Of a DNA stretch of 64,000 nt, positions 20,107 to 51,170 are shown piece after piece (position 1 is the stretch's first letter; the number at the start of each line of letters is the position of its first letter). The DNA comes from Eledone cirrhosa (Eukaryota). Made by a program: the position numbers and the translations under genes. The stretch spans positions 48,608,001 to 48,672,000 of the forward strand of contig OZ024740.1 of the NCBI GenBank assembly GCA_964016885.1. The letters run 5' to 3'. The notes under the pieces are model-generated. The model made no database searches. It was not told the DNA's origin and saw only the letters and a program-made list of their open reading frames with translations.

Positions 20107-20145
<39 letters not shown>

Positions 20146-27519: not shown

Positions 27520-27550
<31 letters not shown>

Positions 27551-27746
27551 GTAAAATAATAACTATATAATATTTAATTATACATAATATATATTATATC
27601 ATTTATTAGATATAAATTAACGATTTTATTTATTATATTTTATTTACAATTTGTGTATAGACAGATCTCTCTGGAAATAGGGTTGGGGTGCTGAGGGTGT
27701 TACGTGGCCATGAGGGCGGGGGTGGCAAAAAGTTTGAGAACCTCTG
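27411..27746. mobile_element. hAT-type MITE (related copies at ~14870-15140 and 39459-39905)
   Basis: TIR CAGAGGTTCTCAAA...TTTGAGAACCTCTG with an AT-rich centre. The 39459 copy has a near-TSD CACTAAGC/TACTAAGT and nested RTE-tail fragments. Confidence 0.75.
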
Positions 27747-30700
27747 GTCTACAGTTTATAAATGATTTGTCATTGGCTGAAAATCTCAAATTTGGAGAGA
27801 AGAGAGAGCAAATGATTAAATAGACTGCAGTTTATGACTGATATTTTATTGACGCTGACAGACTAGAATACCAAGTTAAAATACCTTGAAGCTATCAAGC
27901 CAATTAAAGAACTTGTATGCAGTTGTTCGACTTGCTAGAAATGGCAGCCAAATCTGCTTCTAATCACATCATAACATCTTAAATAAAGATAAATTGGATT
28001 GTCTAGTCTTTCATGTACAAAAAGAATATATATATATATAACTAGGAATTGATCAACATATATATAAATAAATATAAACATGAAAAATCACAGATAATTT
28101 TTACAAGCGTGTAACCACGCATGGCTAGTAGGTAACAAATAAAGTTAACTAGAACTTCAAAAATATATACCTTTTAATGATTAATATATATATATATATA
28201 TATATATGTCTTTCATGTACAAACGACTATATATATATATATCTGTATTTGAACATAGGTCTACAGGATCATGGTTAACTGGATACCTGTATGGTGAACC
28301 ATTGCTTTATGTGTTACACAGATATAACTCCACATCCTGAAAATTAGTTTAAAACAGATGTATGTGAAGTAATTAATTTCTTTCAAGTTACCAATTAATT
28401 CATACTTATGTTTGTTAATACATTAGTCTTAAATAATAGTCAATTAGAAATTGATGGCTGGTAGGCTTAATCTGTCACTCAGTTTACCAATCTCAGAGGA
28501 TCTGAAAAGATTTATGGTTACTGTTTTTCCATTCAACAATAAAAAAAGAAAGAACTATTCTCTTTGATTTAATAACTGATACCAACTAAATGCTGTATGA
28601 AGAAATCCTAGGCTCTAGATAACATATCTTTCATTCAATGCTTAAAAGCTTGTTTCTCAGCATATTTCTAATAAAATACACTGTATTTTAATTGATTTTA
28701 AAGATAATTTGAAAGAATTTAATAAAATAGTGCACTTTTTCATTAAGCTGGTGTTTGAAGCATTTACGATGGAAGGTTTTAATTCAAATATGAATCCCTT
28801 TTTAAAGCATAGTTTTGTATGTTTGATTCAGGGGCAGTTGCAGGTGGGTTCCTATCAAAAATACAATCAGAAATCAATTTGATATAAGGGTGACGCTTAC
28901 TACGCTGAGTAAAATAAGCTAACTTGATTTAACATAAGTTAATTTAGAACTAGATAGTGGTGGAAAAACCACAAGTGTCTGGCTGATGACAGGCTGTGTG
29001 TGTGTGTGTGTGAGAGAGAGAGAAAGCTATTAAACTTATTTTTCAGATAATAATAATAGGACGGAAGTTTATGACTGGTTGTATTTTTAGGGATTCTCTC
29101 TCTTTCTCCTCCTCTCTCTCCCCTTCTCTTTCTCCTCCTCTCTCTCCCCTTCTCTTTCTCTCTCTCTAGGAAATGTGTCAAAAGTTACGAAATATGTTGT
29201 AATCTTGTCTCCTCTCCCAGCTAGCTAATTGACTACAGCAGCTGATCTAGATTTAGATTGTGTCACACAGTACATGCTAGTTAAAGTTTGGGACATACCA
29301 TTGGGATGGATAGTGTGATTCATCAAATTTTTTCAATTTCACGACTTTTATGCTGCTGATTCTATTTGAAAAGGATGTAATTAAAAATACCCTAAAGACA
29401 CTGATTGAACCTCTATCTAGTTGCTTGATCTTCTGGAAATAGCAGCCAAATCTCCTAAGTCTCTTATACACAAAATATGGGATAGCCTTTTATCATAGGT
29501 CTTCTGGATCAGGGCTGAACCACAACTCTAAATATATTGAGAATCCAGTCCTAGATAGTTTCCATTTTCACTTGGAAACATCTCACTTCATTTTACATTA
29601 CTAATCTTCATTTTACATTACTATTCTTCCTCCAAGAGTTCAATTTTTAAGAAACAGACCTGCAGTGAACTGACATTTTCCTACATATGTCTGTCTGTGT
29701 ATCCCTCTTCTATCCTCACACCCTAAACAAGTTTTTCCATCACCCCTCTACATAGGGTAGGGTAGAGGGGGGGCACATCAGGCTATCTAGCTTTGGCACC
29801 ATGAAAAAAGGTACCCAGTACACTATGTAAAAGGGTTGGCATTAAGAAGTCGTGCTAAAACAAGAGCACATGCGAGATGTGATCTCCAGATATTAAATAA
29901 TTGTTTCTACTTTTGGCACAAGGCCAGCAATTATACCAGTGCATTACTGGTACTTTATTTTATCGACCTTGTCAGGATGAAAGGCAAAGTTAACCTTGGT
30001 GGGATTTGAATTCGGACCGCAAAGGGCCGTAACTCTATGCTGCAAAGCATGGCGTCCGACCCTCTACTGATACTGCCAATCCACTGTCCTTGGATCATTA
30101 AATAATAATGATGATATATACATCCCTTGGCAGATGTTAATGCAGGATTAACTCTTTTGATACTAACCTGACCAAAACCAGCCATAATTCTATGAAACAA
30201 AGCCACCCATTTTAAAGAGTTCGTATGTAAATTAAAATCTTCCAACACAATTTTATATATGAACCATATGTTAAGTTAATGTCTTAGTAATGAAATAAAT
30301 AATTTTAGTAAATCTCTCAAAATTCTTCATTAATTAATTCAGAAAGTGTATGGTCGCAAAAAAAAAAAAGGTTAAAATAAAGGTTCTGAATTCTAATCCA
30401 GCTTTGAGGAAATCATAAGTAGGAACGATAGTGGGTGTATACGATAAGATCTAGAATGCAAGGGAATTGATGGGTATCAATTCTAGCAGCCTATATGAAT
30501 TAACATTGGATAACTTGTTTAGTCGGTATGTAATAGTAAAATATTTAAGCTATGAAAAAATGGAGAGCACTGCTGCCAAAACAAGCTGGAAAAGTCACTG
30601 CCTAATACATATTTCTTTTTTGGCTATTATTATATGATATTAAAAATAAATTCATTTTTGTTTACATATAAAACTTTAGAATTTAAGAAAGAGGAAATTA

Positions 30701-31730
30701 GTTTTTAAAACTTTCATACGTTCTCAACGATATCAGCAATATAAGAAAAACTAGTTCAAACTGGAAATCAGAAGAGCCAAGTTTATAGACTGAGAAATTA
30801 CCTGCAGATACTTCAGTAGTGATAAATTTGCTATTGGATAAATAAGGAAGAATTATCCTGCTGAATGATAATTCAAGTGCAGAGAAGGATTATAGGAACG
30901 TGATCACTATACACAGATGATAACTTTCGGTATGAAATTGCAAATAATAAAACTGAGTTTCATAAGTGCGATGTAATGTATCTAAAAGTTCCTGTTGTTA
31001 CAAGCAATATTTGTCATTCAGTATACTGTTTCACATTTTAAACTGATGCTTCTTGTTGTTTAGTCCCTGTCTTTTTTTCTTCATGTATAATGCATCGAGG
31101 ACTACATTATCCAATGTTTCCTTCATTTTATAGTCTCTGGTGTAATCTGAGAGATTTGGTTGTTGCTGTCTAGCTACTGGCTAGTCTTGATTTAGCAAAC
31201 CGATGATCAATTATGATCACATCATCTTTTTCTCCCGAGATACTGTATCTAAATTGACATTAACCAAAATATTTTTCCCTTTTAAGATTCTAGGGTGTAA
31301 TCTGGAAGATCTAGCTGCTATTCATAAAGTAGGGTTCATTTTGCTTTCATGCTGTTTCAAATTCAATCTGTCTCATTGTTCAGCACTACAGCCAAATGTC
31401 TTCTACTATATCCTTGGGTCAACTCCAACCATGTGATACAAACTGTGTGGAAGTCTGTTGGATAGACTGCACTTGTTCTTGTGTGATAGGCTTAATCCAT
31501 CATCTTGGTTTAACATCACTACCTGACTGTTGGGCTGCCTTTAGCATTGTTGGAAGCATTCTGACCAAAACTCCATATTTAAATATGCTGTTTTCTTCTA
31601 CTGTAACTCATTAGTCGTGTATTTTCCTCTTTTACTTTCCCAGTTTTGCTAGGAAGTGGGAAGGGCACTTCCCTTCCACCTCTAAGCTATAAAAAATATC
31701 CCTAAAGAATTGGAATATATAATAAATGTA

Positions 31731-32119
31731 GAAAGATGTAAATAGAATAAAACAATAGCTGTTTGTTGGAGTAACTAAAATATGTACACTAAAGTGAAAC
31801 AGTAGAAGCTGGGGAAACTACTGGTAGTTTGTGTCTGTAAATAATACATTCACAATGTAGTATATGTTAAGCTAGTGTAAATATATTTAATGCAGTAAGC
31901 ACAAAATATTTAATTAGAACTACTTATGCAGTAAGGAAAAAGCCAACAGCTGAATGACTAATAGATTTGCTGTAAAGAAGATGGGAGGTTTGGTGTTTTG
32001 AATAGTATCTTACATTGGAGATAATATAAACATTAGTTGAATGCTATCACTTTTCTTATTAATGAATTCTAAGAAACAACCCTAAGTATTTCTTGTAATA
32101 AGCATACAAAGAAATAAAC
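31731..32119 (+). repeat. Left arm of a near-perfect long inverted repeat (partner 44725-45121)
   Basis: Direct by-eye alignment: 31786-32026 differs from the reverse complement of the partner at only two positions. Confidence 0.95.
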
Positions 32120-32202
32120 GTAATAAGATAATGCACCTGAATGTATGGCTTAATCAAATTTTAAAAATTAGAAGAAAAAAACTTATTTTTAAAAGAAAAT
32201 AT

Positions 32203-35200
32203 TCATCATCATCATTTTACGTCCGCTTTTCCCTGCTTGCAAGGGTGGGACGGGTCTTATTCAGCACAGCATCTCTCCACTCGTCACGGTCCCTCATCAT
32301 CTCCACCGTGAGCTTCAATGATCTGAGGTCTGTTCTCACCACCTCCGCCCATGTTTTTCGTGGTCTACCTCTACCACGTCTTCCTTCAACTGGCATTTCC
32401 TGGCACTTCTTCACCCATCGGTCATCCTCCATGCGCATCACATGTCCATACCACCTCAGTCTCCTCTCCCGTACACTACATTCTATCCCTCTGACACAGT
32501 TTCTCTCTCAACACATTTATGCTGGGTCGTTCACGCACATTTACACTGCACATCCAACGGAGCATGCTTGCCTCATTTCTCTCCAGCCGTTGCATATCCT
32601 CTGCGGTTGCTGCCCATGTCTCACTACCATGCAGCATCGCGCTCCTCACACAGGCATCATACAACCGGCCTTTCGTACGCAGGGAGAAACCCTTCTTCAT
32701 CAACAGAGGAAGCAGCTCCCTAAACTTCTTCCAACCCGTCCTTATTCTAGATACTATGGTCTCGGAACACCCTCCTCCCATGCTAATCTGATCGCCTAGG
32801 TACCGGAAGCTATCCACCACTTCTATAGCGCCCTCTTGCATTTGAAAAATGTGTCTATCAGTGCGACTTCTACTGTCTAATTTCCTTGTACATCTACTGC
32901 ATACATATTTCTCCCTACCTGTTAGTTTGCCTGCTATCCCGCTACATCTCTTGTGTACCCAGGACCTGCATTGTGTGCATTTTATAGAATTTATGCCAGT
33001 TCCTTTTCTGCATATCGAACATGGCCATTTCCCTGACGGAATCAGGGTTTTGTCCTCTTTTCTACTCGTCAACACTTTTGTCTTAGCTAGATTCACTCTC
33101 AGTCCTCTTGCTTCCAACTGCTGTTTCCATAGCCAGAATTTATTCTCTAGCTCCTCTACTGATTCTGCCATAAGAGCCAGATCGTCAGCATAGAGAAGTT
33201 CCCATGGACAGCCAGTCTTAAACTCCTCTGTTATGGCTTGGAGGACTATAATGAACAAGAGCGGGCTGAGGACCGAACCCTGATGTACTCCTACTTGTAT
33301 CTGGAATTCCTCACTAAACTCCATTCCTACCCTGACTTTACTGAGAGTACCTCTGTACAAAGTTTGCACTGTCCTCACAAGCCATTCCTCAACACCTAGC
33401 TTCCTTAGGGACCACCAGATGACAGATCGGGGTACCCTATCAAAGGCCTTCTCTAGGTCAACAAAGGCTAAGTATAGTGGCTTATTCTTCTCTAAGAACC
33501 TCTCTTGCATTTGTCTCACCAAGAAGAAGGCATCTGTTGTACTCTTCCCAGGCACAAAACCAAACTGCATCTCATCTAGTTTGACCCTTTCTCTAATTAG
33601 TTGTGCTAAAATCCTTTCTGCCACTTTCATAACCTGATCTATCAGTTTTATACCCCTATAATTGCTCCTCTCCAAAGCATCCCCTTTACCTTTGTAGCAA
33701 TTTATGAGAATACTGCTGCACCAGTCTTTGGGTATGACACCACCATATATAGCCTGATTGATGATGCGTGCAACCAGTTTAGTGCCTACGTCCCCTGATG
33801 CCTTCAGCATCTCAGCAACTATTCCCGATGGTCCGGCCGCCTTACCATTTTTCATTTCCCTAATCGCCTCTTGGACCCTATATTCGTCAATCTCAATAGC
33901 TGGTCCCTCTGTCGGATCTACCAAGGGTAATTTTTCTCTCTCCCATTCGTTCTCCACATTCATCAGTCTCTCATAATGACATTTCCAGGCCTCCTTTTTC
34001 TGATCATTCGTGACACTAAGTACACCGGCATCATCCCGGACACATTTATCTCCAACAACATCCTGATTTGCATTGACACACTGCCTTGCAATGTGGAACA
34101 CCGCACGCCTCTGATCTTCCCATCGCAGAACATTGGCAAACCTCCTACTCTCTGCCTCCCTGCGTGCTAAGTACACCTGACGTCTAGCTTCTCTCTTAGT
34201 GGCTGTATATTCTTCCCTACTCCCACCCTTTTTCCAAGCCTTCCATGCTAGTCTTTTGTCTCTAATAGCCTTATCTACTGTGCTGTTCCACCACCAGGTC
34301 ACTCTCTGTCTGGTTGGAGCTCTGCTCCAGCCACAGGTTTCATCAGTAGCCTGCAGCAAGTTGTCACGTAAGAACTTCCAGTTATTATCTGTCATACGTC
34401 TCTAAATCGTCTTCTTTTTCGTCATATACATCTTGAAGGGCTTTCCTAAATTTGTATTTTAGTGAAGGATCTTTTACCTTCCAGACCTTTCGTCTCCACA
34501 CCTTCCTATATGTCTCATTCCATCTCTTGCTTACTGAGATATCACTAACAACTAACCTATGCTGTGGGGTACATTCTTCCCCAGGGTATGCCTTGGTATT
34601 AGACACGATCTGCCTGTCCCGCTGCCTAACTAGCAGGAAGTCAATCTGGCTTATGTGCTCACCAGATTTGTAGGTTATTAGGTGATTGGCAGGTTTTTGG
34701 AAGTTTGTGTTGCAAATAGTCAATGTACTCGCATCACAAAATTCAAGAAGTCTCACTCCTTCATTTTTTGAAACCGTAACCGTGCCCACCTTGTACCCCA
34801 GTGTAACCATCCTGGAGCTGTCCAACATGACCATTGAAGTCTCCTGCTAGCATAACGATGTCTCCGTCCTCTGTCATTGTGGTTGTTTGCAAAAGTTGCT
34901 CATAAAAGCAGTCTTTCTCATCTTTGCCTAGGCCTGCTTGGGGAGCATAGACCGAGATGATTCAGTAGTCTCCTACCTACAACTAATCTAAGCTTAATTA
35001 TTCGATTACTAACTCGAACTACCTCTATTGTCTTATTGATCCATTTCTCAGCCAGGAAAATGCCTACTCCCCCTAACCCATCATCCTTACCTACCCAGAA
35101 TAGCTTATAGCTAAGACGCTTGCCTACGACTAGTCTCGCAGAGGCACCTCTCCATCTCACCTCTTGCACGCAGCACACATCCACCTGCCTTCTCTCCAGC

Positions 35201-35480
35201 ATCTCCGCTATTTCAGCAGATCTACCTCTGAGAGTGCCAACATTAAGTGTTGCAACTCTGAGATGCGACGTCTTCATATTTTGTTGTTGTTCCTATGCTG
35301 TTTTGTTGCTGTGCTGATAAGCGTTTTGGCATTGATACACTGGTTGGATGCCCTTCCTAACACCAGCGCCACTTTACAGCATGGACTGGGTGCTTTTATT
35401 TGTGCCACCAGCACTAGAGAGGATGTCTTACTAGACTCAAGGGCCCTCTCTAACCCCTCCATTTTACAGCATGGTCATTA
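32203..35480 (-). mobile_element. Near full-length RTE-clade LINE (APE plus RT with PHD-like insertion, about four frameshifts)
   Basis: TLNVGTL/VQEVRW/GDFNGH/IDFLLV endonuclease motifs. RT motifs QFGF, FVDLEKAFD, GVHQGSVLSP, YADDL and YLG. (GAT)n tail at 32203-32214. Confidence 0.95.
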
Positions 35481-37451
35481 AAAAAAAAAAAAAAAAAAAA
35501 AAACTTATTGACACGACGCACACACAAACACTCACATTATTAAAATATTAAAATATTTCAATGATTTTTAAATCAGTATGAAAATATTCAAGTATTTGGA
35601 GGGATTTATAATATAACTAACATTCATTATTTTGCCAGATGGTGGATTGGCAGTATCGGTAGAGTCGGACACCATGCTTTGTAGCATAGTTACGCCCCTT
35701 TACGGTCTGAGTTCAAATCCCGCTGAGGTTAACTTTGCCTTTCATCCTTACTGGGTTGATAAAATAAAGTACCAGTAATGTACTGGGATAATTGCTGGCC
35801 TTGTGCCAAAAGTAGAAAAAATTATTTTGCTGATGTTTGGTATCTATAACTTAATAGTTTTTACATAAATTTATGATGGAAGGTTTTTAAATATAAACAA
35901 TTTAAAATAAAGTTTTGACATAGAACTGAGGGCAGGCCATTTGGTATCAAAAAGGTTTATATTTTCCCATATTAAAGACTAACAGACAGGCAAATGTAGA
36001 ACAAGAGATTTCCATTCTCATAAAAAGATATGTGTAATGTTTGTTCCTGTAGGTTTCACAAAGTAACATAAATAGAAGGAACACTGTTAAATAGGATGTC
36101 AAATGACTGCATATAAGCTCCTCCATTGGCTCAGTGAACTTAGACATCTTTTTGCAACTACTTTGTCTTCTTTGTGGACATTATATACAATGCTAAGAAA
36201 TTTATGAATAAATAGAGCAACACCTAGAGTAAGGAGCATCTTAATTTGACTGGTGGATTTACAGAAAACTGCTAGTTTAGTTAATTTTATTTGATAAACT
36301 ATAAAATAAGATAAGCAGCTGTTACATAAATATTGATTAGTGATTATTTTGCCAGCAATTACAAAAAATGTTATTTTTGATTTTAAAAATAATACAGAAA
36401 ACTAGGTTACTTTATCGTTCAGCTCCAACTTAGCTTTGATGCAGTAGACCTATGCTAAAAAGAGTTCTAGCAATGACCATCTAATTTTCCTTTCCAATTC
36501 TGACATAGTGTTCTTCCGCTATGATTTTAGGATGATTTGATTGCTATTTCTAGCAGATTGAGTGACCATATAGAGATTTCCTAGTTTACCTGATTGTGTA
36601 GCTTGCTCTTTATGAAAAAGTTTGGTCATATATTGAATAAGAACAAAAGAAACTTGTGGTATTTGTAATTAATTAGATAAGTGAGCACTTTTACTTAAAT
36701 TGTTTTGAAAGTGGTTATGGTGTTAGTGTTGCTGGAGGTGAGGATGAGGGGAAATTAAGTACAGTCATGTTTGGAAATGTGAGAAAAAAAATTACTGCTG
36801 GTTATGAGAATATTTGTATCTTCTGCCTCCCTTTTAAGTGTTTCTGCCGAAACATTAATAAAATAGCTCTTCACAAAGATGACATTAGTTTACATATGGT
36901 TCACAGGTCATTAGTTCACATATGTTACTATACTCTAAAGACATCTACTAAGCTGTGGGAATAAATATTGACCTGTAAGGTTACATTCAATAGACTAGAA
37001 TCCATGGCATGAGATATATATCATGACTTTTTCTAAAGAAATGTGTTACTCATGTATTTGATTAATTTTGAAAATAAGAGTGTTTAATAAAATAACATCT
37101 GGTGTTGGAAACATCTTAACAAGCATTTCTTGCATGGAATTATGGTGGAAGTTTTCATTTAAATATGAACATTTTGAAACAAACTAATTTGTGAGGTTAA
37201 CTTTGCCTTTCATCCTTACAGGGTCGATAAAATAAAGTACCAGTAATGTACTGGGATAATTGCTGGCCTTGTGCCAAAAAGTAGAAACAATTATAAAACC
37301 TGGGGTGGTCTCAATTATGTTGGCATTGATAGGTTTAAGATGGGTAGCTTGAATATACTGATCATACTAAAATAAATTGTGATTAACTAATTTTCTTTAA
37401 ATTTTTGCCTAGTTTTTAATGATGACTGATTCATTAATTTAGTTTAATTAC

Positions 37452-38419
37452 CTGGAAGGTTTGTTGCAAGGAGGCTTTATCAAATTCCAATGCTTCCTCT
37501 GCCTTTGGGACAGCAGAGCCACCTCTGACCACTACAAAAGAAAGAACTGGGAGCAGCGAACAGAATTTGTAGTTGGGACCCGGAACGTCATGTGGGAGCC
37601 ACTGGTTGATCCCAGGATTGTGCTCATGCCGCCACTGCAAATTAAGTTGGGGTTGATGAAGCAGTTTGTGAAGGCTCTCAACCAAGAATCAGCCGCTTTT
37701 AAGTACCTTCTTGAGTTCTTCTCCAAGTTATCTGAATTTTTGTTGGACCTCAGATAAAGAAGGTGTTTGAGTCTACCGAGTTCTCCAATAAGCTCAATAG
37801 GATTGAGGGAACAGCATCGAACTGTTTCAAGGCAGTTGTTAAGGGCTTCCTGGGCAACTACAGAGCTGAAAACTACCAGCAACTGGTGCAGGATCTGATA
37901 AAGGCTTTTGGCGCCATGGGATGCAGGATGCCGCTTAAACTCCATATGCTGGACGCTCACCTGGAAAAATTCAAGGACAATATGGGCGCCTACTCAGAAG
38001 AACAAGGCGAACGATTCCACCAAGATGTGAAAGAGATAGTGGAGGTACCAGGGCCACTACAATGAAAAAATGATGGGGGACTATATCTGGGGGCTAGTGC
38101 AGGAATGCGACCTGGACTACAATGGCAAATCCAGTCATTTCTGGCGTGTATAAGTTGCTTTATAAATGTTTACTTGTTTGCTTTTGATAAGCTTGTGTAA
38201 TAAAATAAATATATACTCTGTTGATTTAATTATATGAACTGATAAATTTAAAAAAAAATGTGTTTTTTCTTGAAAAATATGAAAATTTCGAAATATCAAA
38301 CTCCTGACCACAAACCCAAACTTCTGATTAAATAATAGTATTTTTTAAAAATAATAATGGATATAACAAACCAGAAAATGACACTTAGAACTGGGGAACA
38401 AAAAATATGTTACATGGTG
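37452..38419 (+). mobile_element. Chapaev3-like (CMC) DNA transposon, 3' fragment
   Basis: CFLCLWDSRA...PPLQIKLGLMKQFVKAL...LKLHMLDAHL...SEEQGERFHQD, ending TGTTACATGGTG|TAA. Confidence 0.75.
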
Positions 38420-40539
38420 TAATCAGACATGTGATGTAAGCAAAAAAATTTAAAGAAAGACATGTCATTAAAACTGTATTTCTGTTAAATTAAACAGATT
38501 TTCTGGATGTTTTTGAATTTAACAAGTAGCTAATTAATTTGCTATGTCTTGATTTTAACTACTTCGATGAATAATCTTAAACTGACTATATTCTATCTAA
38601 GAGAACTAAATCCGTTATACATACGTTTGTAGGACAATATAGAGAGGTTTGATGGTTATTTCTAAATTATTAAGGTGGTGTATTGGCAAAACCGTTTTGA
38701 GTTCAATTCCTGCTAAGGTCAACTTTGCCTTTCATCCTTTTGAGGGTGACAAAATAAAGTACCAGTCAAGTACTGGGTTTATTTTTTATTTTTATTTATT
38801 TATTTTTTTAAATTTCTTCAACTTACCTTTCCTCCAAATTGCTAGCCTTGTTCCTAAATTTTAAAAGCATTATTTTCTCCATTAATTTAGGTAGTTGATG
38901 ATAAAATTAGAATGCTAAATAAAATATTTTGTGGTTATTTAGTTACTAGATCCCTTTATAATTCTATTAAGATCAACTTAGTCTTTCATCTTTCCAAAGT
39001 CCATATAGTACCAGTTCAATGCTATGAATTCATTGCTCTCCTTACAAAATTTGTAGCTTTGTGTCAATGTTAAAAATTATTTTCTCCATCCTCCAAATGT
39101 TTTGTGGTGCACATACTGGACATAAATTCTTATAACACTAATTTTTACAGCATTGTGTACTTATTCTGTGATAGTTAATTCTTGTACAAAATTAGCTGCA
39201 AACAGCAAAAAATGTCAGCTAAATGTCTACCTATGAATGACACAGGGAAAAAGTGAAATACTTTTATCATGACGTCTGTAAACACTAGAAATTCAATAAA
39301 TTAAATGCACTAAAGAAATATGATTCAAGTGAATCAATGAGAGAGCCTCTTCATAGTTACTCAACCTACCAGAAATCTCAACCAAATCCATACAAATCAC
39401 ACATCTTACTCTTATGAAAAATAAGAATTAATCATATTCAATAATAGATGCACTAAGCCAGAGGTTCTCAAAGTGGGTGCTCCCCCCCCCTCCCACCGGG
39501 GGTGGGGTGGGGGGGTGAGAAGGTCATAGTGCACACTGGGGGCCTAAGCGGGCGGTAGAGATGATATAATAGTATATTAAATATCAAATGATATATAATA
39601 TATAAAAATATATAATTCCATGCTAGCGTGGAAAATGGACGTTAAACGAAGATGATGATGATAATTATTTATACATAGTATATATTATATTATTATATCG
39701 CCATTTTACATCCATTCTTCATGCTAGCAAGGGTTAAACGAGTTGTCCTGTTGTAGGCAATGCCAGATCAGGTGACCATGTCTTGCTCATACATACATAT
39801 TATTTACAATTTGCATATAGGCAGGTCTCTCTGGAAATCGGAGTGGGGTGCTGAGGGTGTTACATGGTCATGAGGGTAGTGGCTCCAAAAGTTTGAGAAC
39901 TTCTGTACTAAGTTCTCAAAACAAAATTGATGGGATGCTCAGGACCAGAATTCTCTTCATAATAGGCCTGCTCAATCAAGGCTTACCTGAGAGCTAAATC
40001 ACATGTTTCAGACAAAATTAGATTAACCCTTTAATGTTCAAACCAGTGAAAACCGGCCAGAATTCTCTACCTCTTTCTGTTGAAACTGGCTGTAACTGGT
40101 CACTCAAACTGATGTTAAGGTATTGTTCTCAAAATAAATACTTTCAAAATCTCATAGATTCGATATTATGTGAGATAATTATGCGAGGTAAAGCCTTTAC
40201 CATGAAAATATAATAGTATATATAGAGCAATGTGAATGCTAAAGGGTTAAAAAATAAATATAATGGTAAAAGCTTTGAATCAGATTATGAGGTAGGTTTT
40301 AATAGAGTTGATAGTATTTGTTTAAAGAATTATTAACAAATTTGTCTTTCATCCTTCTGGGGGTCAATAAAATAAAGTATCAGTTAAGTATGGAACTTCA
40401 TATAACTGACTTTTCCCTTCCTCGAAATTCCTGACCTTGTCCCGATGTTAAAAAGAATTAACTTTTGTGGTACCTTTCATTAAGCAATTTTTCAGCTAAT
40501 ATGATAGAAAATATATCAAGTTACCAAAACTTTAATGTA

Positions 40540-40575
<36 letters not shown>

Positions 40576-43500
40576 TATATATATGTGTACACACACACTC
40601 ACAATATGCTGAGTGATCATGTAGAGGCACACCTGGATCATATTTCTTTTTTTCTTTTGTATTTAATTCATTCAGTTTCTAGTGTTTACATGTGTTGTGA
40701 TATAAGCATTTTCGTTGTGCCATTCATAGGTAGACATTTAGTTTTACTTTTTGTTGTTTGAGGCTATATTTGTACCAGAATTAACTGTCACGTGATATAC
40801 TGTTGTTTGTTATTGGCCTCTTTTATGACTCATTAAAGTTTTTTCCCCATGAAAACAATCTGACATGTATCATAGTAAGGTGAATGCGTGTGTTTTTTAA
40901 ATATAGATATTTTCATGTTTACAATTAGGCTTTCACGTAGCATTTACATTGACATCTGACTGGTGACTGTGATATAGAAAGAAATACTATCTATATTTAG
41001 CTTGTCAAAATACTGTAAAATCGTTTATTTCCTAGAGTTCTCTTGTAAATTCTACCTTGTATGGTGTTCAGCCATTTTAGAATTTTTTCTTTTTTAAAAG
41101 AAGTTAGTGGCACAGAATGAGAAGTAGTGCCCATGATCCTTGCAGACTCGAGATTGTTGAAAATATGTGGCTGGTTCTCAGCCAGACACCACCACTCAAG
41201 CTTTTGAACTGACACAAAAATACACTGGATGGTAAAATAAGTGAAACACAATTTGACTATTATGATGCAAACTTATTCAGCCCAAAACTCTGCTACTTAA
41301 ACTCTGAAAGACTTTAAAGTGTTTGCTTAACTCTAGTTTCATGACATAAAGTGGATGAGAAATTTCTTTCCTGGATAGGTCTCCAGTCTACTTGCAATCA
41401 TTTATGACAGTTTTTTTTCCATGCTCACATAGGCTGGACGGCATCATCTTATGCAATAGCAAAGAGAACAACTAATTATTGATTTTTGTATGTCATGTGA
41501 TTTCACATGGCTTTTATGCCTGAGTCCCCTTCTTATTATCAACCATTTTACAGCACAAACTGGATGTGTTACCATTATACTACAGCCACTAGAAATTGTC
41601 AGCCAGGAGTAAAGAGTCTCCTCTACTCTGCAACAATTTGTATTCAGTTACTCATAGACATGTTGCCTTTCTTCCAGCTTGTGGAGACCATGGCTACTCC
41701 AATGCTTCTTTCTTACAGGTAATAATTCCTGTAGGATGTCTTACATATTCCTTGACAGCAATGTACAATAAACTAATGTAAAAAGTGTTCTGTTCAGCGA
41801 AACAACTGTTATGAAACAGTCTTATCCACTTGACCATTTCAACTCTACAACTAATAATTATTAGTTATTTGTCCCAGATGATCCTTCAGTTGTTACATAT
41901 ACTTTGAGGCATTTACATTACTCTATATTTACTATTGTATTTTCATGGTAAACACTTTACCTCACACATCAAATCTATGAGATTTTGATATTATTTATTT
42001 TGAGAACAATACCTTAACATCGGTATGAGTGGCCAGTTATGGCCTGTTTGAACAGAATGAGGTGAGAGAATACTGGCTGGATATGGCTGGTTTAAATGCT
42101 AAAGGATTAATTAAAATGAAGTGATTTTAAACAAACAATATACGTTTTGGTTTCCTGCTTCAAACATAGAAAGTATGATTACTATTGGTTTTAATCCATT
42201 TCTAGAGAAATTTCAATATCATATTTTTACAGAAACAAGAAATAACTATTTTTTCAGATCACAAAATGAAAGTACAAACATTTTTTTGTAATTAAATAAT
42301 TACCTTTTTATATATATAAAAAAAAAATAATAATAATATTAACCACCACCAAATACCTTGGTGTTAAAATCTTAAAATTCCACATAATTCAGTAGAATTT
42401 GTTTTTTATATTTTGTAATAGCGTCATTGATATTGGCGTGTTATGTATGAGCTGGTAAGTCAACATAGGTAATTAGTATTTATTGACTTTTCACTGCAAT
42501 GTTCTCACCAAATAAACATAGAAGGCAAACAAAAAGCAGAATACCAGACTCTATATGTAAGATCAATTAGAAGAAATTATTTTGCAACATTTAGGTTTTT
42601 AGAAAACACCCAGAAATTCTAATGAAGTCTTTTACCGACCTTGTTAATAAAGTTGACATTAGCTAATGTAATGTTGGTAGTGATATCATTAGTAATTATT
42701 TATTCAATTATTTGTTTTATCTTCTGTTACACAATATTTCAAGATTGGTTTATATTTTTTACTTTTGGCCTTTGTGGGGAAAGGAGTTAATTTCATACAA
42801 TTTCCTTTTTAACCCATTTAACACCAACCCATCTGAAACCACCCGTGGTTTTAAGATATATCTGCTCCTTTTAAAGTGCTCATACTTATATTAAAACTTT
42901 TCATCATTATTTTATGTAAAAACATTTTGGTAAGTAATGCTCCAAACATCAGTTTAATAACTAAGATTGACCAATACTATGAGAGTAAAATTTGGTAAAC
43001 TGTGTGTGGATAGTTTTATGTTCATATCCAATACTGTAACAATTCAACAAAACAGAATAAAATATATACCAGTTTTTAAAAGTCTTGGTATCAATATAAA
43101 CAAAATCCCTTCAATGCGGTGTACTAGCATGACTGCAGTCTGACAAACAAATAAAAGAATGACTGGCTTCTGCACAATTTTCATCTACCAAATTCTGCTA
43201 GCTAACTTGAGTCTATGGTAGAAGATACTTGCCTAATAGACTGTGTGGTTATAAAATGAACTTTATAGCTATGCTTGTGACCTTTATTAACCTTCAGCAC
43301 GCTGATGGCGACAAGAGAGTAATCTCCCCTTAATACATAATGCAATGTCAAGGGAAGCAATTCAAAAAAAATTCAGCATCTTAAAGGTTAATAGTGGCAC
43401 TCCTCAAGTTTTATCCACTACTTAATCTACAATGTGCAAATCCACCATACATTTTGACTTAATGATGGACAGAAACCAGAGTCTGAAGAACTAATATTGA

Positions 43501-43870
43501 TCTGTCAACAAAAGTCCATCAATAAAGTTTACACATTTGCAAATAATTTTTTTTTTCCTAGTCACAAAGTTTTAAGAAAAAAGAAATGATGTAGTGATCG
43601 TTAAGCTTTTCTGAAAGACATTAGTGACGTAAGTGGGTTGAATAAAACAATAATAGTAATGACAATGATTTTCAAATTTGTGACACAGAAAGAAAAGAAA
43701 AAGTAGAAAAGGATAGCTATACAGTTTTGTTTTTTGTAATCTAATTGTTCTACGTTCTGTTAACTCATATTTTAGTTTGTTCCAGTTTAATGTAGGTTTT
43801 AAAAACATTACACATTTTATCTGACTTTATGAGAATGGGAATTTCTTGTTCAACTTTTGACTGTTAGTCC

Positions 43871-44084
43871 TTAACCCTTTAGCATTTAAACCGGCCATAT
43901 CCGGCCAGAATTCTCTCACCTCTTTCTGTTCAAACCAGCCATAAATGGCTGCTTATACTTGTGTTAAGGTATTGTTCTCAAAATAAATATCAAAATAGAT
44001 AGATTCAATATTATGTGAGATAATTATGTAAGATAAAGCCTTTACCATGAAAATATAGAGTAATGTAAAATGCTAAAGGGTTAA
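43871..44084. mobile_element. piggyBac-type (TTAA) MITE, family A
   Basis: TTAA-CCCTTTAGCATTT...AATGCTAAAGGG-TTAA. Other copies at ~12452-12645, 40024-40250, 41908-42110 and 46006-46204. Confidence 0.85.
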
Positions 44085-44431
44085 AGTAATATTTTAACCC
44101 TTTTGATACAAAACAGTCTGATTGCCACTCTCTCTGTTTATCTTAAAGTGTTTATATCTATCTTTAAAAAAACATCTATCATAATTTTATATAAGAACAT
44201 TTAAATTATGCTCAAAACACCAGTAAAATGAGAAAATCATATTACTAAATTCTTCCAAATACTTGATTATTTTCAAAGTTTTTTTTTTTATTTTTTTATT
44301 TTTTTTTTATTTTTATTATCTTTTTTTTTTTATATTAGAAATATGGTAACTAAAAGGTTAAAGAATTTGCAGAATATTTTCTTAGAAAAAGAAATGGTTT
44401 TTTTCCTCTAATTATTAGAATTTATAAACAA

Positions 44432-44717
44432 TGCTCCCACACCCTCCCACTGCAAAGTGGTCGTGGAGGTGCCATAGCAAAAAAGCACCCAGCCTACACT
44501 GTAGAGTGGACGTGTAGGCGCCACGGAAAAAAGCACCCAGCACTCACTGTAAATGAGGTTGGTGTTAGGAAGGGCATCCAGCTGTAGAAATCAACCCAGA
44601 ATCAGTTCCTGTATGAGCAAGACAAGGTCAGCCGACTGGACACTGGGTGCCCACAACAGGACAACCTATCTAATCCATGCTAGCGTGGAAGAACGGACGT
44701 AAAACGATGATGATGAA
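44432..44717 (+). mobile_element. RTE-tailed SINE fragment
   Basis: TTAGGAAGGGCATCCAGCTGTAGAAA body and CCATGCTAGCGTGGAAGAACGGACGTAAAACGATGATGATG tail. Relatives at 48325-48570, 48622-48970, 57450-57590 and 61240-61510. Confidence 0.75.
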
Positions 44718-44724
44718 TCATTAA

Positions 44725-45121
44725 GTTTATTTCTTTGTATGCTTATTACAAGAAATACTTAGAATTTCTTAGAATTCATTAATAAAAAAAAAAAAAAGAA
44801 AAAAAAAGTGGTAGCATTCAACTATTATCTCCAATGTAAGATACTATTCAAAACACCAAACCTCCCATCTTCTTTACAGCAAATCTATTAGTCATTCAGC
44901 TGTTGGCTTTTTCCTTACTGCATAAGTAGTTCTAATTAAATTTTTTGTGCTTACTGCATTAAATATATTTACACTAGCTTAACGTATACTACATTGTGAA
45001 TGTATTATTTACAGACACAAACTACCAGTAGTTTCCCCAGCTTCTACTGTTTCACTTTAGTGTATATATTATTTTAGTTACTCCAACAAACAGCTATTGT
45101 TTTATTCTATTTACATCTTTC
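44725..45121 (-). repeat. Right arm of the near-perfect long inverted repeat (partner 31731-32119)
   Basis: Reverse complement of the left arm with a few substitutions and short indels. Confidence 0.95.
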
Positions 45122-48100
45122 ATCTGTTAAAGGGAATTATGATCATTGATAACATTCTAACACATTTTAAAAATATATTCCAATTCTTTGGGGATTTGTT
45201 ATTTAATCTCTTAGTCAGAGGAGGAAGACTGGTTTTTCCTCCTACTGAAACTGGGAGGGGGTGGACAGAAGAAAGGAAGAAAGCCCAACTAATAAGTTAC
45301 TACAGTAGGAAGCAGCATAAGTTATCCTTAGGTCAGAATGTTTACAACAATGTTAAATACACCAACTGGCTAGGTGATGTGAAGCCTATCACACAAGAAC
45401 AGTCACTCTGACAGGCTTCTACATTGTTTCTATTTAGCCAATTTCATTTATACCACTTAAATTGACTCATTGAAGACATGCCTATAGTACTGCACTGTTG
45501 AATTGAACGTGGAACAATGTAATTTATTTTCTTAACCAGACATCCATGCTGTTTGAATTTTCTTTAATTGTTTGGATAATATAGCTCTAGATACACTCTG
45601 ATCATTGCATTCTGAATTCAGCTTCGATTTTCAAACTTCCTGGTTGCTAAAATAATACCATTCATGTAAATTTATATTTCTATAAATGGATCCAAGATAT
45701 TGTAAACAATTTCTATTATCTTCAGGTCAGCTCTGATTTAACACGCATGACAAAGACTTTCCAGTTATGATCATCTGGTCTTGTTTCCAATAGTAGTGCA
45801 TCTAAGATTACATTATTCAAGATGTGCTTACTTCCTTTTTAAGATTGTAGAATATGATTTGGGAGAGATGTGTCTGCTGTTTTTAGCAAATCAAGTAAAT
45901 GCGTAAAGGCTATGTCATGTTGATTTGTAAATAACGAAAGTCTATTGAAATGGTTTACTCCTAATGCTCAACACCATAAAACAAAGAAATAAGAGAGTTC
46001 ATGTATTAACCCTTTAGCATTTAAACCAGCCATATCTGGCCAGAATTCTCTCACTTCTTTCTGTTCAAACCAACCATAACCAGCTATTCCTACCAATGTT
46101 ATGGTATTGTTCTCAAAATAAATATCAAAATCTCATAGATTCAATATTGTGAGATGTGCAAATACAATTGTAAATATAGAATAATGCAAATGTAAAAGGG
46201 TTAATAGTTATTGTTAATCCTGTTCAAGCAGACCTGTGGTCGAAGGGATTCCAGCAATGGAATTGGTTTGTAGAATATTATTTAATTTGAGCTGTTCTTC
46301 TATAAGGCAGTATGGTAGGATTTGAGGTAGCTTTGGCTGCTATTTTTAGTTCATGTGAACTAAAATAAATTCAGATATTTCCCGATAGCATCAAATCTAC
46401 TAAACACCTTGATTGAGGGGAATCATTGAGAAAGTTTCTTGATCGACATTGTTTAAACCATTGGACAGATGGAGCTTCATTTTTATAGGCAGAATGAATA
46501 TTCCTTGTCATGTATGTTGCTGAGGAACCGTTTTGTATTCATACAGCATACAATGACTTATGTGACTCATCAGCATTCATTTTAGAGGGGTCAAATTGCA
46601 CAATATTAACATTAAATTAATCTGGGAAAAAAAAAAAAAAAAAAAAAAGCATTAGGACAAAAAATTAAAAGTTTATATTGCAGTCAGTATTGAAAAAGTG
46701 TTTTTAAAGTCATTATATATAAAATGCAACAGGAATTCTAACTAATAGTTATTTCTTTGCTGGTTAAGAATGATATCCTCACTTCTCCAGTCACTGTGTG
46801 TTGGAGGTGGGATTTACAAACCAAAATAGACAGAAAGTCAGGAAATGGTTGGTGAACATGAGTGAAAAACATTGAGGTTAACATTAAATTGTAACCACTT
46901 GTAAATCTCAACACCTTTTGTTATTTAGTTTCCATATTGTTCAAGTATTTCTATAGATTTTTCACCAATCTGTATGCAGGGGATTGGCAGTACCGGTAGA
47001 GGGTCGGACACCATGCTTTCCAGCATAGTTACGTCCCTTTATGGTCTAAGTTCAAATCCCGCCGAGGTTAACTTTGCCTTTCATCCTTACGGGGTCGATA
47101 AATTAAAAGTACCATAATGCACTGGGTAATTGCTGGCCTTGTGCCAAAAGTAGAAACAATTATTTTCATGGAAAGAAAAAGAGGCATCAGTTGGACAAGT
47201 TTTAATCCTTTCTTGAGATTTCATCATATACTAAATATACTTTTCTTTTGTTATATTTCAAATGCCATCAGTATGTATTTTTTTTGTTCCAAATATCTTA
47301 ATATACCAGTATGTATTGTATTTTGTTGTGTTCAACACCATAATATACGAAATATGAGAACATTTGTGCAGAGTTTATATAGATATAGAAAGCAAACAAC
47401 TATCAAAAATGGAAATATTTGTTTGCTCTTTGATTTGATTTTAGAGATGCCCTAGTATATTAAGGCTTTCCAGGTTAGGTAATTCAAACTGGTGAGGTCT
47501 AGCATATATGAGATGCATCTGACTCTGTAAGGTTGAAGTTTTTCAGGAGAGGTGGGAGTGTATTAGGGTTTATTTTTTAAATTTATTTTTTTTCCCTTGA
47601 AACCAACCATGTCGTTAAATGTTATTAGGTTAACATTTAGTGGAAGCTGATGAGTTTTAACTCTTTTCTTACCATATTTTCAACAAAAGATGCTATTTAT
47701 GGTTTTCAAATAATTTCAAAATAAAAAAAATTTGAAAAGATTTAGTAATACAACTGACTTTCTCATTAAGTTGGTGTCTAAAACATAACTTAATAAATGT
47801 TCTTGCATAGAATTATGATAGGTTTTTAAATAACACTTTAAAGCAGTTTCATATTCTAAAGCTAATGATGGTTTTAAGCAGTTTGGTACCAAAAGGGTTG
47901 ATTATGAATCGGTTACTGGAGAAGAAAGAAGGATAATTAATAAAGAGATATATCTACAAATGAAGAATAGATTTGGTTGAGTTTGACAGAAGATAAATCA
48001 TTCTTGAAGATGAGAGAAAAACTAATGGGGAAGACAAAGTTTGTGTGGTGGAGTCAAATGGCTCACTGTATATTATCAATTAAGATAGTCATTGAGAAAA

Positions 48101-50838
48101 CATCAGATTCATGATTAGTTCAAGTATATTTCAAAGGAAGGAATTTTAGTTTGCTTGTACAGAAGCAGGACTTATTTTCAAAAGCTCAGTTAATATGTAT
48201 AACATAGAAATAGAAATATGAAGACATCCTTTAGCAATCTGTTATCTTGACATACTGCAACAACAATATTTCAAGAAGAGATTCAGTTCCAGAGGTTTCT
48301 TAGTCACTTTCAATTTAAAATATTCATCATCACTGTTTAACGTTCATTTTCCATGCTAGCATCGGTTAGACGAGCTGTCCCATTGTGAGACAAGCCAAGT
48401 TGGATGACCATGTCTTGCTCATAAGGAACTAATTTTGGCTTGGTTTCTATGGCTGGATGCCTTTCCTAACGCAAACCACATTTACAGTGTCTACTGAGTG
48501 TTTTTTCTCATGACATCTACACAACTATTTTACAGTGTGGGCTGGGCACTTCCTATCGTGACACCTACACAACCACTTCAAATTGCTGGCCTTGTGCCTA
48601 AAGTAGAAAGAATTGTTATTATTCATCATCGTTTAACGTCCGTGTTCCTTGCTTGCATGGGTTTGGACGGGAGTTTTCCCACTTGAGGCAAGAGTGGTTG
48701 TCTTGCTCGCGTAGGACTGTCTGGCGGGTTTTCTACAGTTGGATGCCCTTCCTAACACCAACCACATTTACAGTGTGGGGCTGGGAGGTTTTTACCGTGT
48801 TGCCTACACGGCCACATTACAGCGTGGACTGTCTGGCAGGTTTTCTACAGCTGGATGCCCTTCCTAACACCAACCACATTTACAGTGTGGGACTGGGACG
48901 TTTTTACCATGTTGCCTAAACGGTCACATTACAGCGTGGACTGTGTGTTTTTTTGTCGTGACACCTACACGATCTCATTTGTTTCGGCCTGGATATGTAT
49001 CAATATTAAATTGTTGCATTGGCCTTGCAATAAAGTGAATAAACATTTAAGTAGATTGATTTCTAGTATATTTCATTTAAATTTTCTAAGACGAAAATTT
49101 CCGTAAGCATCATATTTGCATATATTTGGCAGCCATTTTTCAAATTCGTCTGCAACTACTAACATTCCATGAATATCTGTATTTATTCTGCAGTACACTT
49201 CCTTTAATGTAGTTGATTGAAGGCCACTGGCAGGTTTCAAATACGCTAGTTGTAACAGTAGTAACGCCTTGTGAGCAATGGAAAGGGGATAAACTTACAC
49301 AAGTTAACTAATAAAAGAAAAAATAAACAACTATATAGTTTTAAAATTCTATATAAATAAGACCAGTTTTTTTTGTTTTGTTTTGTTTGTTTTTCATTTG
49401 AGATTTCATATTTGCATATTTGTCTGCTTTCTCTCTTGCTGCAGTCTGTCTATTTTTGTCTTTCACTCAATATTTTATTCTTACAATTCTACTTGCCTCT
49501 CCTTCCTAACAAGGTGTTGTCTATTGTTGGATAACCTCAAAGGTCACCATTGATTGAGCAGCCATATGATCTAGCTTTGATTATCCTGTTTGCTTATACA
49601 TTGGACTACACTGCTCAATATGTTCTTCCATATTTTTATGATGCTATAGTGTGATTTGAAAGAGTTTGGCTGCTATTTCTTGCTGGTTAAGTAACTGAAT
49701 AAGTTAAATCCACTAGTCATTATTAATTCTTAATTGAAGCTATTTCATTTCCTTAACACTACTAATGGATATATGTTCAGTAAAGGCATGATTGTCACAA
49801 AACCTTATATCCATTTATAATTTTTCAGGTTCCATTTCTACATAAGAAAAAAAAGTTGATTGCCATAAAATAAAATAGAGGTGTGCACTTTAGTTTTAAT
49901 TTCTGATTGTAACTGTATCACTTCATCATCGTTTTACGTCCATTCTCCATGCTGGGGTGGTGCTTACTGTATATATGCTTCAGCTTCGGCCTGTACCCAT
50001 GGGAAGTTCAGTCTTCTGTATTACTGTATAATGCCAGAGATTTTGGTCCTGTGTAATCACCTTTGAAATGTGCAATTGGGCAAAGTCGGCTTTTATCACT
50101 TCATCCCAAGGCTTCCATCGACTTTGAGCAGTTTGCACCTTTTTATGCAGCTATCATCCTTCATATACACCACATGTCCATACCAACATAATCTCCTTTC
50201 TTGCACACAGCATTTGATTCCTCTTATACCTAGTCCATGAAAAAGACTGAAATGTCTCATCAGGGTTGACTTTGATTTTCATCTTTCCAAATTTGACAAA
50301 ATAAGTGACACTTATTTACTAGTGTCAGTATAAAATGTATGGTCTTTCACCCATGTCAGAAATCAATATGAGCCTTCTCTTCTTCCTGATGTTGCTACAA
50401 ATGTGAAGTTTTGTGCCAATATAAGAGATTATTATTTCAGATAGTTACGTCCCTTTACGTTCTGAGTTCAAATCCCACAGAGGTTAACTTTGCCTTTCAT
50501 CCTTATGGGGGTCGATAAAATAAAGTACCAGTAATATACTGAGTAATTGCTGGCCTGTGCCAAAAGTAGAAACAATTATTTCAGTTCTTTTCCTCCTGTT
50601 CAACTTCCATACTGCTCTTATATCATTCGTTGATACATTCTTTTATCCACCCACTTTTCAAAATCTTACTATGACAATGAGCTAATGAGGATGGGCCTTT
50701 GCATGGTTGCTTGATTTGCTAGAAATAGCACCCACATATGCAATATAGTGATTTGAAAAACTTCAATCAACTGAGATTATCCAAGCAATTAATAGATAAA
50801 ACTCCACCTAAAGATGTTTAAAATCTAAAAATAACCAG

Positions 50839-51170
50839 TCATCATCATCATTTCATTTTATGTCCGCTTTTCCCTGCTTGCAAGGGTGGGACGGGAACTG
50901 ATTCTGGTTTGATTTCTACAGCTGGATGCCCTTCCTAACACCAACCTCATTTACAGTGCTGGGTGCTTTTTTGCCGTGGCACGACCACTTTGCAGTGGAA
51001 TGATAGGGACCGCAGTCCCTATCATCTCATTTCTACAGCTGAGTAAACTGGAGCAATGTGAAATAAAGTGTCTTGCTCAAGGAAACAACACATCACCCGG
51101 TCTGAGAATTGAACTCACAACCTTTCGATTGCAAGCCCAAATGCTCTAACCACTAAGCCATGTGCCTCCA
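50839..51170 (-). mobile_element. Complete tRNA-headed SINE with CORE-like body, RTE 5'-UTR segment and RTE 3' tail
   Basis: Minus strand has A-box TGGCTTAGTGG, B-box GAGTTCAATTC, CCTTGAGCAAGACACTT, then TTAGGAAGGGCATCCA, then CCCGTCCCACCCTTGCAAGCAGGGAAAAGCGGAC and a (GAT)n tail. Confidence 0.8.

What the first reader, a model, noticed from the sequence alone, without database searches (positions are those of the whole stretch)
31400..45500. Old inverted duplication with a near-identical ~390-bp non-coding core 12.6 kb apart: candidate long-range dsRNA stem
Seen: 31731-32119 and 44725-45121 are reverse complements, and a ~240-bp stretch has only two substitutions. Homology continues outward (31440-31720 vs 45170-45425) and inward (32155-32203 vs 44372-44425; 35977-36042 vs 43802-43870) but is clearly more decayed there. 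Each arm has its own insertions (RTE LINE and SINE on the left; SINE and TTAA MITE on the right), so the duplication is old while the core is homogenised. The core has no long ORF and no third copy in the window. The three clean transitions in the core and one just outside would all be G-U wobbles on a + strand RNA; this is a small sample and only suggestive. Inference: either selection for base pairing in a pre-RNA (ADAR substrate, endo-siRNA hairpin RNA, or a loop controlling splicing or circularisation) or arm-to-arm gene conversion.
Basis: partly seen in the sequence, partly recalled or inferred. Interest (0 to 1): 0.8.

Follow-up and report, generated by a model that had tools for sequence, protein, structure and literature searches.

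The report
Inverted duplicate homogenised by gene conversion
In an octopus-type genome, two inverted copies of an old non-coding stretch 12.6 kb apart share a 98%-identical 390-base middle, likely because one copy was overwritten from the other by ordinary gene conversion, and any RNA pairing between them would likely be a by-product.

Summary
The feature is real. 31731-32124 and 44720-45121 are reverse complements (374 matches, 8 substitutions, 4 gaps). They sit inside a colinear inverted duplication whose flanks are about 81% alike. Two full copies were found in the 3.0-Gb genome, and DNA-run contigs collapse exactly over the core at about summed depth, so misassembly is unlikely. The host is an octopod.

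The core contains two fragments of old dispersed repeats. There, both arms have drifted from the dispersed copies as far as those copies have from each other, yet share the changes (30 shared, 1 arm-specific). Core edges fall at a 39-bp indel and a SINE insertion, and identity is layered (1%, 5.5%, about 19% different). This is the published signature of interlocus gene conversion shrinking towards a block's middle. The formal test against a frozen, selected core is only suggestive (P 0.05-0.6). The G-U bias does not hold up (core 3:3 with ambiguous sites, flanks 29:23).

Both arms probably lie in one + strand transcription unit, so an edited duplex may form as a by-product. No RNA data or related genome was available. 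Verdict: ordinary concerted evolution, low interest.

The parts
31345..31722 (+). Left arm, outer decayed flank; mostly an old dispersed-repeat copy (about 31436-31700) plus sequence shared only with the right arm
   Evidence: 79% to 45522-45171; 30 other partial matches in the genome; both arms lack a stretch of about 9-10 nt that the displayed dispersed copies carry
31731..32024 (+). Left core, youngest layer (3 substitutions + one 3-nt indel vs right arm); left edge at a 39-bp indel
   Evidence: DNA contigs collapse on 31731-32026
31792..31858 (+). Fragment of an old low-copy repeat inside the core; 13 changes shared by both arms, 0 arm-specific
   Evidence: 3 other copies only
31865..31975 (+). 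Fragment of an old dispersed repeat family inside the core; 17 changes shared by both arms, 1 arm-specific
   Evidence: 52 top-matching copies; 119 and 226 first-look candidates
32025..32124 (+). Left core, older layer (5 substitutions, 9-nt, 17-nt and 3-nt gaps)
   Evidence: 3/291 vs 5/91 substitutions, Fisher P 0.02
32150..32203 (+). Left arm, first inner decayed block
   Evidence: 46 matches/7 substitutions to 44428-44371
32204..35470 (-). Young LINE retrotransposon inserted in the left arm only
   Evidence: RVT_1 E 5.6e-29; nearest held copy differs at 2.0-2.4% of sites
35536..35968 (+). Left arm, inner blocks (old repeat at the same position in both arms), split by a left-only SINE at about 35621-35826
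35972..36066 (+). Left arm, innermost block; found at two places only in the genome
   Evidence: 2 matches: itself and 43803-43874
36067..43795 (.). Spacer of 7.7 kb: repeats, a transposase-like fragment at about 37430-38150 and unique AT-rich DNA; no exon established
43796..44428 (-). Right arm, inner decayed blocks, with a right-only TTAA-flanked element at 43871-44085
44430..44718 (-). SINE-like insertion in the right arm, flush with the inner edge of the core
   Evidence: nearest held copies differ at 5.3-7.7% of sites
44720..45121 (-). Right core (reverse complement of the left core)
   Evidence: a contig 45092-46030 enters it from the right flank in all 3 runs
45171..45522 (-). Right arm, outer decayed flank
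19640..53400 (+). Inferred + strand transcription unit holding both arms (promoter-like CpG-rich stretch, strong donor at 20024, CpG-poor body, T>A skew); gene not identified
   Evidence: inferred from DNA composition only

Best explanation
This is an old local inverted duplication of about 1.2 kb of non-coding, repeat-derived DNA whose 390-bp middle was likely re-copied from one arm onto the other by intrachromosomal gene conversion, probably at least twice, with no sign that selection is needed. Shown: the two-copy colinear duplication, the step in identity, the edges at an indel and a SINE, and drift from old repeat copies that both arms share. Inferred: conversion continued only in the longest uninterrupted block while insertions and indels cut the flanks off; an earlier tract covered 31731-32124 at about the age of the right-arm SINE, and a later one only 31731-32024. 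Also inferred: both arms lie in one + strand pre-RNA, so the core would be able to form a 290-390-bp duplex and be edited like other inverted repeats, as a consequence and not a cause.
For: (1) In the 105-column repeat fragment the arms differ from the column-wise commonest letter by 17.1% and 16.2%; the median of 52 dispersed copies is 16.75% (27 of 52 copies closer than the left arm). 17 changes are shared and 1 is arm-specific. Mean identity to other copies is 0.711/0.720 for the arms vs a copy median of 0.718 (51 copies after one near-duplicate was dropped). (2) A second fragment gives 13 shared and 0 arm-specific changes in 64 scorable columns; arm-to-copy identity 53/67, 49/66, 43/67 vs copy-to-copy 53/66, 54/67, 43/66. 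(3) Repeat fragments in the flanks show the reverse: 6 shared and 39 arm-specific, vs 11 and 1 in the core by the same method, Fisher P 7e-7. (4) Layered identity: 3/291, 5/91 (P 0.02), 7/53, then about 20%. (5) Edges coincide with a 39-bp indel and a SINE insertion. (6) No strand bias of G-U pairs and no A>G/T>C or AT>GC excess among shared changes (6 of 17 vs 251 of 965, P 0.41; P 0.59). (7) The pattern is the one described for Drosophila duplicates: high identity in the middle, raised divergence at the edges (PMC2588116, section 8 read); conversion runs until TE insertions or large indels disrupt pairing (PMC3924837, passages); tracts are typically a few hundred bases (PMC3961182, passages).
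Against: The second fragment has only 3 outgroup copies, one of them picked by likeness to the core. No orthologue or population sample was available, so conversion was not seen directly as paralogues clustering within a species. The pattern is not common here: among the 9 other near-identical low-copy inverted pairs in 1.56 Mb I profiled 6 and none had a contiguous decayed flank of this kind. One inner repeat block has no shared derived changes (0 of 107 columns), so its position in both arms rests on colinearity alone.
Confidence: 0.72

Rival explanations
1. The core is kept near-identical by selection for a long-range RNA duplex in a + strand pre-RNA (ADAR substrate, siRNA hairpin or splicing/circularisation loop), with conversion perhaps supplying the matched changes.
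For: Both arms probably share a + strand transcription unit: T>A skew 0.039 outside the arms (P 7e-5), like the + strand TIR gene (0.054), unlike the - strand gene (-0.077) and intergenic DNA (0.007); CpG o/e 0.27-0.44 over 26-54 kb. The core is the longest of 28 inverted matches of 100 bp or more in 20-53.4 kb and the most stable of the 12 pairs computed (-597 kcal/mol; SINE/MITE pairs -220 to -323). The three clean transitions are G-U on +. Cephalopods edit intronic and UTR repeats widely (PMC9068888, passages). The freeze test does not reject constraint.
Against: No slow-down against dispersed copies. G-U bias absent overall. Bulges of 3, 9, 17 and 3 nt are tolerated, and a young 3.3-kb LINE sits 80 bp inside the left core end. 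Edited human Alus usually have their partner about 0.7-2 kb away (PMC2533698, passages), not 12.6 kb. No exon was established in the loop. Selection on single pairs of a 390-bp stem should be very weak (own reasoning).
Confidence: 0.11
2. Each arm's core is independently conserved as a duplicated DNA-level regulatory element (exapted repeat fragments), and the inverted orientation is incidental.
For: A conserved block with sharp edges inside decayed homology fits a constrained element; the formal freeze test is inconclusive.
Against: Two independent repeat fragments in the core are as far from their families as other copies are. The edges match an indel and a SINE. 99% identity over 294 AT-rich bases (29% G+C) with all drift shared is easier to get by copying.
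Confidence: 0.07
3. The arms mediate one or more inversions of the 12.6-kb spacer by non-allelic crossover in the core, and the homogenised core is the conversion tract of such events.
For: Inverted repeats drive recurrent inversions in human genomes (PMC3961182, abstract start and passages). The spacer's T>A skew is weaker (0.015, not significant) than outside the arms (0.039).
Against: Spacer skew is not significantly different from outside (P 0.19) and differs from the reversed expectation (P 0.003), so a long time in the flipped state is unlikely. Contigs cannot phase across the core.
Confidence: 0.08
4. The near-identity is an assembly or polishing artefact.
For: The three DNA runs come from at most one sample, possibly the one assembled.
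Against: In all 3 runs a contig covers exactly 31731-32026 at depth 13, 21.2 and 15.9 against summed flank depths 13.8, 25.7 and 17.0. Both outer flanks enter the core, and both versions of the differing sites occur (right-arm letters in X1, left-arm letters in X2 and X3).
Confidence: 0.02

Closest known systems
Concerted evolution of two-copy duplicated blocks by interlocus gene conversion (Drosophila; PMC2588116, PMC3924837)
   Same: Old duplicate with high identity in the middle and raised divergence at the edges; conversion cut off by TE insertions and large indels; block of a few hundred bases.
   Different: Here the block is non-coding, repeat-derived, inverted and 12.6 kb apart; the published examples hold genes and were shown with orthologues, which were not available here.
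Inverted repeats that mediate recurrent inversions (human; PMC3961182)
   Same: Near-identical inverted arms around a spacer of about 10 kb, which could recombine.
   Different: The identical block is short (0.3-0.4 kb); no inversion polymorphism could be tested; spacer skew does not indicate a long-standing flip.
Intronic inverted-repeat dsRNA edited by ADAR (inverted Alus, PMC2533698; C. elegans editing-enriched regions, PMC4408787; repeat-directed editing in coleoids, PMC9068888)
   Same: Two complementary arms probably inside one long transcription unit in a lineage with extensive editing.
   Different: Arms come from a local duplication, not two SINE insertions; spacer far longer than the usual 0.7-2 kb of edited Alus; no editing data.
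Long terminal inverted repeats of DNA transposons in this genome
   Same: Near-identical inverted arms some kilobases apart.
   Different: Those arms have at least 40 listed matches genome-wide; this core has two full copies, and its outer ends are the most decayed part.

Membership tests
Duplicate under interlocus gene conversion | Arms descend from one old local duplication (colinear, two-copy unique sequence, arm-specific later insertions) | tested here: met
Duplicate under interlocus gene conversion | A tract far more alike than the rest, bounded by heterologies | tested here: met
   97.9% vs 81%, P 8e-18; edges at 39-bp indel and SINE
Duplicate under interlocus gene conversion | Tract keeps diverging from outgroups at the neutral rate while the arms stay alike | tested here: inconclusive
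   Point estimates fit, but the freeze model is not rejected, P 0.05-0.6
Duplicate under interlocus gene conversion | Paralogues cluster within species; shared polymorphism between arms | not testable with these tools
   No related genome is held; one sample only
Selected long-range RNA duplex (ECS / hairpin RNA / reverse complementary match) | Both arms in one transcript | tested here: inconclusive
   Indirect support from skew and CpG; no RNA holder listed
Selected long-range RNA duplex (ECS / hairpin RNA / reverse complementary match) | Strand-specific excess of G-U-preserving changes | tested here: not met
   core 3:3 (3:0 clean sites only), flanks 29:23, P 0.49
Selected long-range RNA duplex (ECS / hairpin RNA / reverse complementary match) | An exon in or beside the stem whose editing, splicing or circularisation it could control | tested here: inconclusive
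   Only weak micro-exon candidates (41678-41718, 42422-42454); loop ORFs without significant Pfam or usable Atlas hit
Selected long-range RNA duplex (ECS / hairpin RNA / reverse complementary match) | A-to-I clusters, siRNAs or back-splice reads; cross-species compensatory changes | not testable with these tools
   No RNA run and no orthologue available
Known structured RNA family (Rfam) | Match at gathering score | tested here: not met
   28000-50000 gave one chance-level hit outside the arms (E 1)
Transposon terminal inverted repeats / young high-copy repeat | Many near-identical genomic copies, best identity at the outer ends | tested here: not met
   Two full copies among 7 matches; outer ends most decayed; contig depth about the sum of two single-copy flanks

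The most novel reading that the evidence does not exclude
A locally duplicated, repeat-derived inverted arm pair inside an octopod gene forms a 12.6-kb-range, 300-400-bp near-perfect RNA duplex that is kept in register by gene conversion acting as a source of ready-made compensatory changes, with selection retaining it for editing, small-RNA production or control of micro-exons in the loop.
Probability: 0.1. Interest if true: 0.7.

Novelty: new member of a known kind. Interest (0 to 1): 0.22.

Why it matters
As read here it is a clean, datable example of a known neutral process in non-coding DNA, and a caution that a near-identical inverted core inside decayed homology mimics a selected RNA stem. 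It would matter more if the novel reading held: conversion maintaining a functional long-range duplex would give cephalopods a way to keep editing or splicing structures without slowing sequence evolution. The locus has a handful of arm-diagnostic sites, so both readings are easy to test with RNA-seq and one or two related genomes.

Tried and rejected
Assembly artefact: rejected. Young high-copy repeat or transposon TIR: rejected. Two independent insertions of one old repeat: rejected, since two-copy unique blocks are colinear and both arms lack a short stretch that dispersed copies have. Coding or pseudogene origin: 25 ORFs scanned with Pfam, only the LINE ORF was significant. Homologue searches with 53055-53390(-) and 49076-49264(-) found nothing, and the first overlaps an old high-copy repeat. 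Atlas gave no usable hit for 49076-49264(-) and 41000-41272(-). These blanks do not show that exons are absent; a full HMMER search of the loop ORF was not obtained. Rfam: nothing. Self-folding of the core: unremarkable. Editing-templated or GC-biased repair: no spectrum bias in 17 changes, low power. RNA: no RNA holder listed; this is no evidence on expression or on conservation in other species. First yardstick runs used too wide a block or misaligned the right arm (outer-flank rows; partly) and were not used for numbers. The first baseline filter missed my own pair and was relaxed. An apparent second step-identity pair 70 kb upstream proved to be separate transposon copies. Literature: 9 searches listed no paper on a conversion-maintained intronic RNA duplex or on this locus; the library lacks most subscription papers and I read no supplements. 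Look-ups of earlier findings showed nothing.
Full report
Setting. The window is G000:C1:48608001-48672000 of a 3.0-Gb assembly. An exon at 54945-55088 matches an Octopus vulgaris TIR/HEAT protein at 88% identity, and tblastn maps that protein's exons over 54945-73787 on +. The host is therefore an octopod. No related genome is held.

Observation. The core pair is the top hit listed in the window's self-comparison. Aligned globally it has 374 matches, 8 substitutions and 4 gaps; 31785-32024 has two substitutions. Five further colinear blocks run outward to 31345/45522 and inward to about 36066/43796; together they give 489 matches and 115 substitutions (Fisher P 8e-18 against the core). The innermost block is found only at these two places in the genome. 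Each arm has its own later insertions: a LINE whose nearest held copy differs by 2.0-2.4%, two SINE-like elements (nearest copies about 5-9%) and a TTAA-flanked element (8-12%). So the duplication is local and old.

Not an artefact. Three runs that behave as genomic DNA, all of one sample, hold the locus. In each, one contig covers exactly 31731-32026 at about the summed depth of the two outer-flank contigs (13 vs 13.8; 21.2 vs 25.7; 15.9 vs 17.0), both outer flanks enter it, and both versions of the three differing sites are seen. The sample may be the one assembled, so this is not a second individual.

What the core is made of. The core query found 7 places: both arms and five partial matches at 74-79%. 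Following these up, 31865-31975 is a fragment of an old dispersed family (119 and 226 candidates, 40 scored each) and 31792-31858 a fragment of a small old family (3 other copies). The outer flank is largely a third old repeat. The core has no long ORF, no Rfam match and no unusual self-fold.

Copied or frozen? The repeat fragments give an internal outgroup. In 105 columns the arms differ from the column-wise commonest letter by 17.1% and 16.2%; the median of 52 copies is 16.75%. 17 changes are shared by both arms and 1 is arm-specific. Mean identity to other copies is 0.711 and 0.720 against a copy median of 0.718. The second fragment shows 13 shared and 0 arm-specific changes in 64 columns, and the arms are no closer to its 3 copies than these are to each other. 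Repeat fragments in the flanks show 6 shared and 39 arm-specific changes. The core therefore looks as if it kept drifting while the arms were re-equalised. The limit must be stated: if the core had been frozen since the duplication (6-11% per arm ago), 17 or more shared changes would still occur with P 0.05-0.20, or 0.12-0.59 if the sampled copies are younger-looking than average. The evidence favours copying but does not prove it.

Anatomy of the tract. The outer edge is a 39-bp indel; the inner edge is flush with the right-arm SINE. Identity is layered: 3 of 291 sites differ in 31731-32024, 5 of 91 plus three gaps in 32025-32124 (P 0.02), 7 of 53 in the next block, about 20% beyond. The 5.5% layer matches the SINE's age. 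This reads as an earlier tract reaching the SINE, then indels, then a shorter later tract (inference). A Drosophila study describes this middle-high, edge-low profile and ascribes it to conversion failing at the edges (PMC2588116, section 8 read in full). A review states that conversion continues until TE insertions or large indels disrupt pairing (PMC3924837, three passages). Tract lengths of a few hundred bases are quoted in PMC3961182 (passages).

The RNA-stem reading. Both arms probably share a + strand transcription unit: a CpG-rich promoter-like stretch with a strong donor at 20024, CpG o/e of 0.27-0.44 from 26 to 54 kb, and a T>A skew of 0.039 outside the arms (P 7e-5), matching the + strand TIR gene and opposite to a - strand gene. 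Reading CpG depletion and skew as marks of a transcribed gene body rests on my own knowledge. The gene was not identified and no coding exon was established between 20 and 53 kb. If transcribed, the core would be the longest of 28 inverted matches in the unit and the most stable of the 12 pairs computed, and coleoids edit intronic and UTR repeats broadly (PMC9068888, passages; long-intron dsRNA in C. elegans, PMC4408787, passages). Pairing and editing are thus plausible by-products. Positive signs of selection are missing. The three clean transitions are G-U on +, but three more beside indels go the other way and the flanks split 29:23. The + and - duplex energies differ by 1%. Shared changes show no A>G/T>C excess. 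Edited Alus usually pair within about 0.7-2 kb (PMC2533698, passages).

How common? In 1.56 Mb (7 blocks, one centred on this locus) 20 low-copy near-identical local pairs passed the filter, 10 of them inverted including this one. I profiled 6 of the other 9; none had a contiguous decayed flank of this kind, and the 2 checked genome-wide are arms of multi-copy elements. Near-identical inverted pairs are common in this genome, but this old-duplication-with-fresh-core form was seen only once, at the locus that was picked for it.

Inversion. Crossover in the core would flip the spacer. The spacer's skew is weak (0.015), not different from outside (P 0.19) and different from the reversed expectation (P 0.003): no sign of a long-standing flip, and a recent one cannot be tested.

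Verdict. A selected RNA duplex (0.11), an inversion-linked tract (0.08), a conserved duplicated DNA element (0.07) and an artefact (0.02) remain. It is a new instance of a known kind; interest 0.22. Orthologues and stranded RNA-seq would settle it.

Noticed in passing
window 54945-64000 and beyond (to +73787), + strand: TIR-domain plus HEAT-repeat gene, orthologue of Octopus LOC115211707. Two promoter-like CpG-rich spots with donor sites, near 53770-53812 and 55670-55750; the second lies downstream of the ATG exon and could give an N-terminally shorter isoform (inferred).
   Followed up: partly
window 19640-53400, + strand: A 33-kb apparent transcription unit (promoter-like start, donor at 20024, CpG-poor body, sense skew) with no identifiable coding exon: a long non-coding gene or a distal 5' exon of the TIR gene.
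   Followed up: partly
G000:C4:200044039-200049766 (L208): Element with 1.7-kb inverted arms 99% identical to each other but at most 94% to any other listed full-length family member: a hint of arm-to-arm homogenisation in long-TIR transposons of this genome, or a young rare sublineage.
   Followed up: partly
about +90 to +154 kb in window coordinates (L027-L029, L164-L167): A tandem array of about 64 kb with a unit of about 60 bp and almost no CpG (o/e 0.01-0.06). A 1.8-kb segment at +77.9-79.7 kb has 94-98% copies on its far side at +156-161 kb.
   Followed up: no
+81.6 to +89.6 kb (L026, L027), - strand: Exons resembling peroxisomal trans-2-enoyl-CoA reductase (name recalled from the peptide, not from a call), convergent with the TIR gene.
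   Followed up: no
window 37430-38150: High-copy transposase-like fragment inside the spacer (ORFs; depth); family not identified, no significant Pfam match.
   Followed up: no
L021:2200-7600 (about -38 to -32 kb): LTR-retrotransposon-like element with 431-bp direct repeats 99.3% identical, and a decayed inverted relative in L022.
   Followed up: no
window 5739-6177: Palindromic arrangement of two SINE copies head to head, about 79% self-complementary.
   Followed up: no
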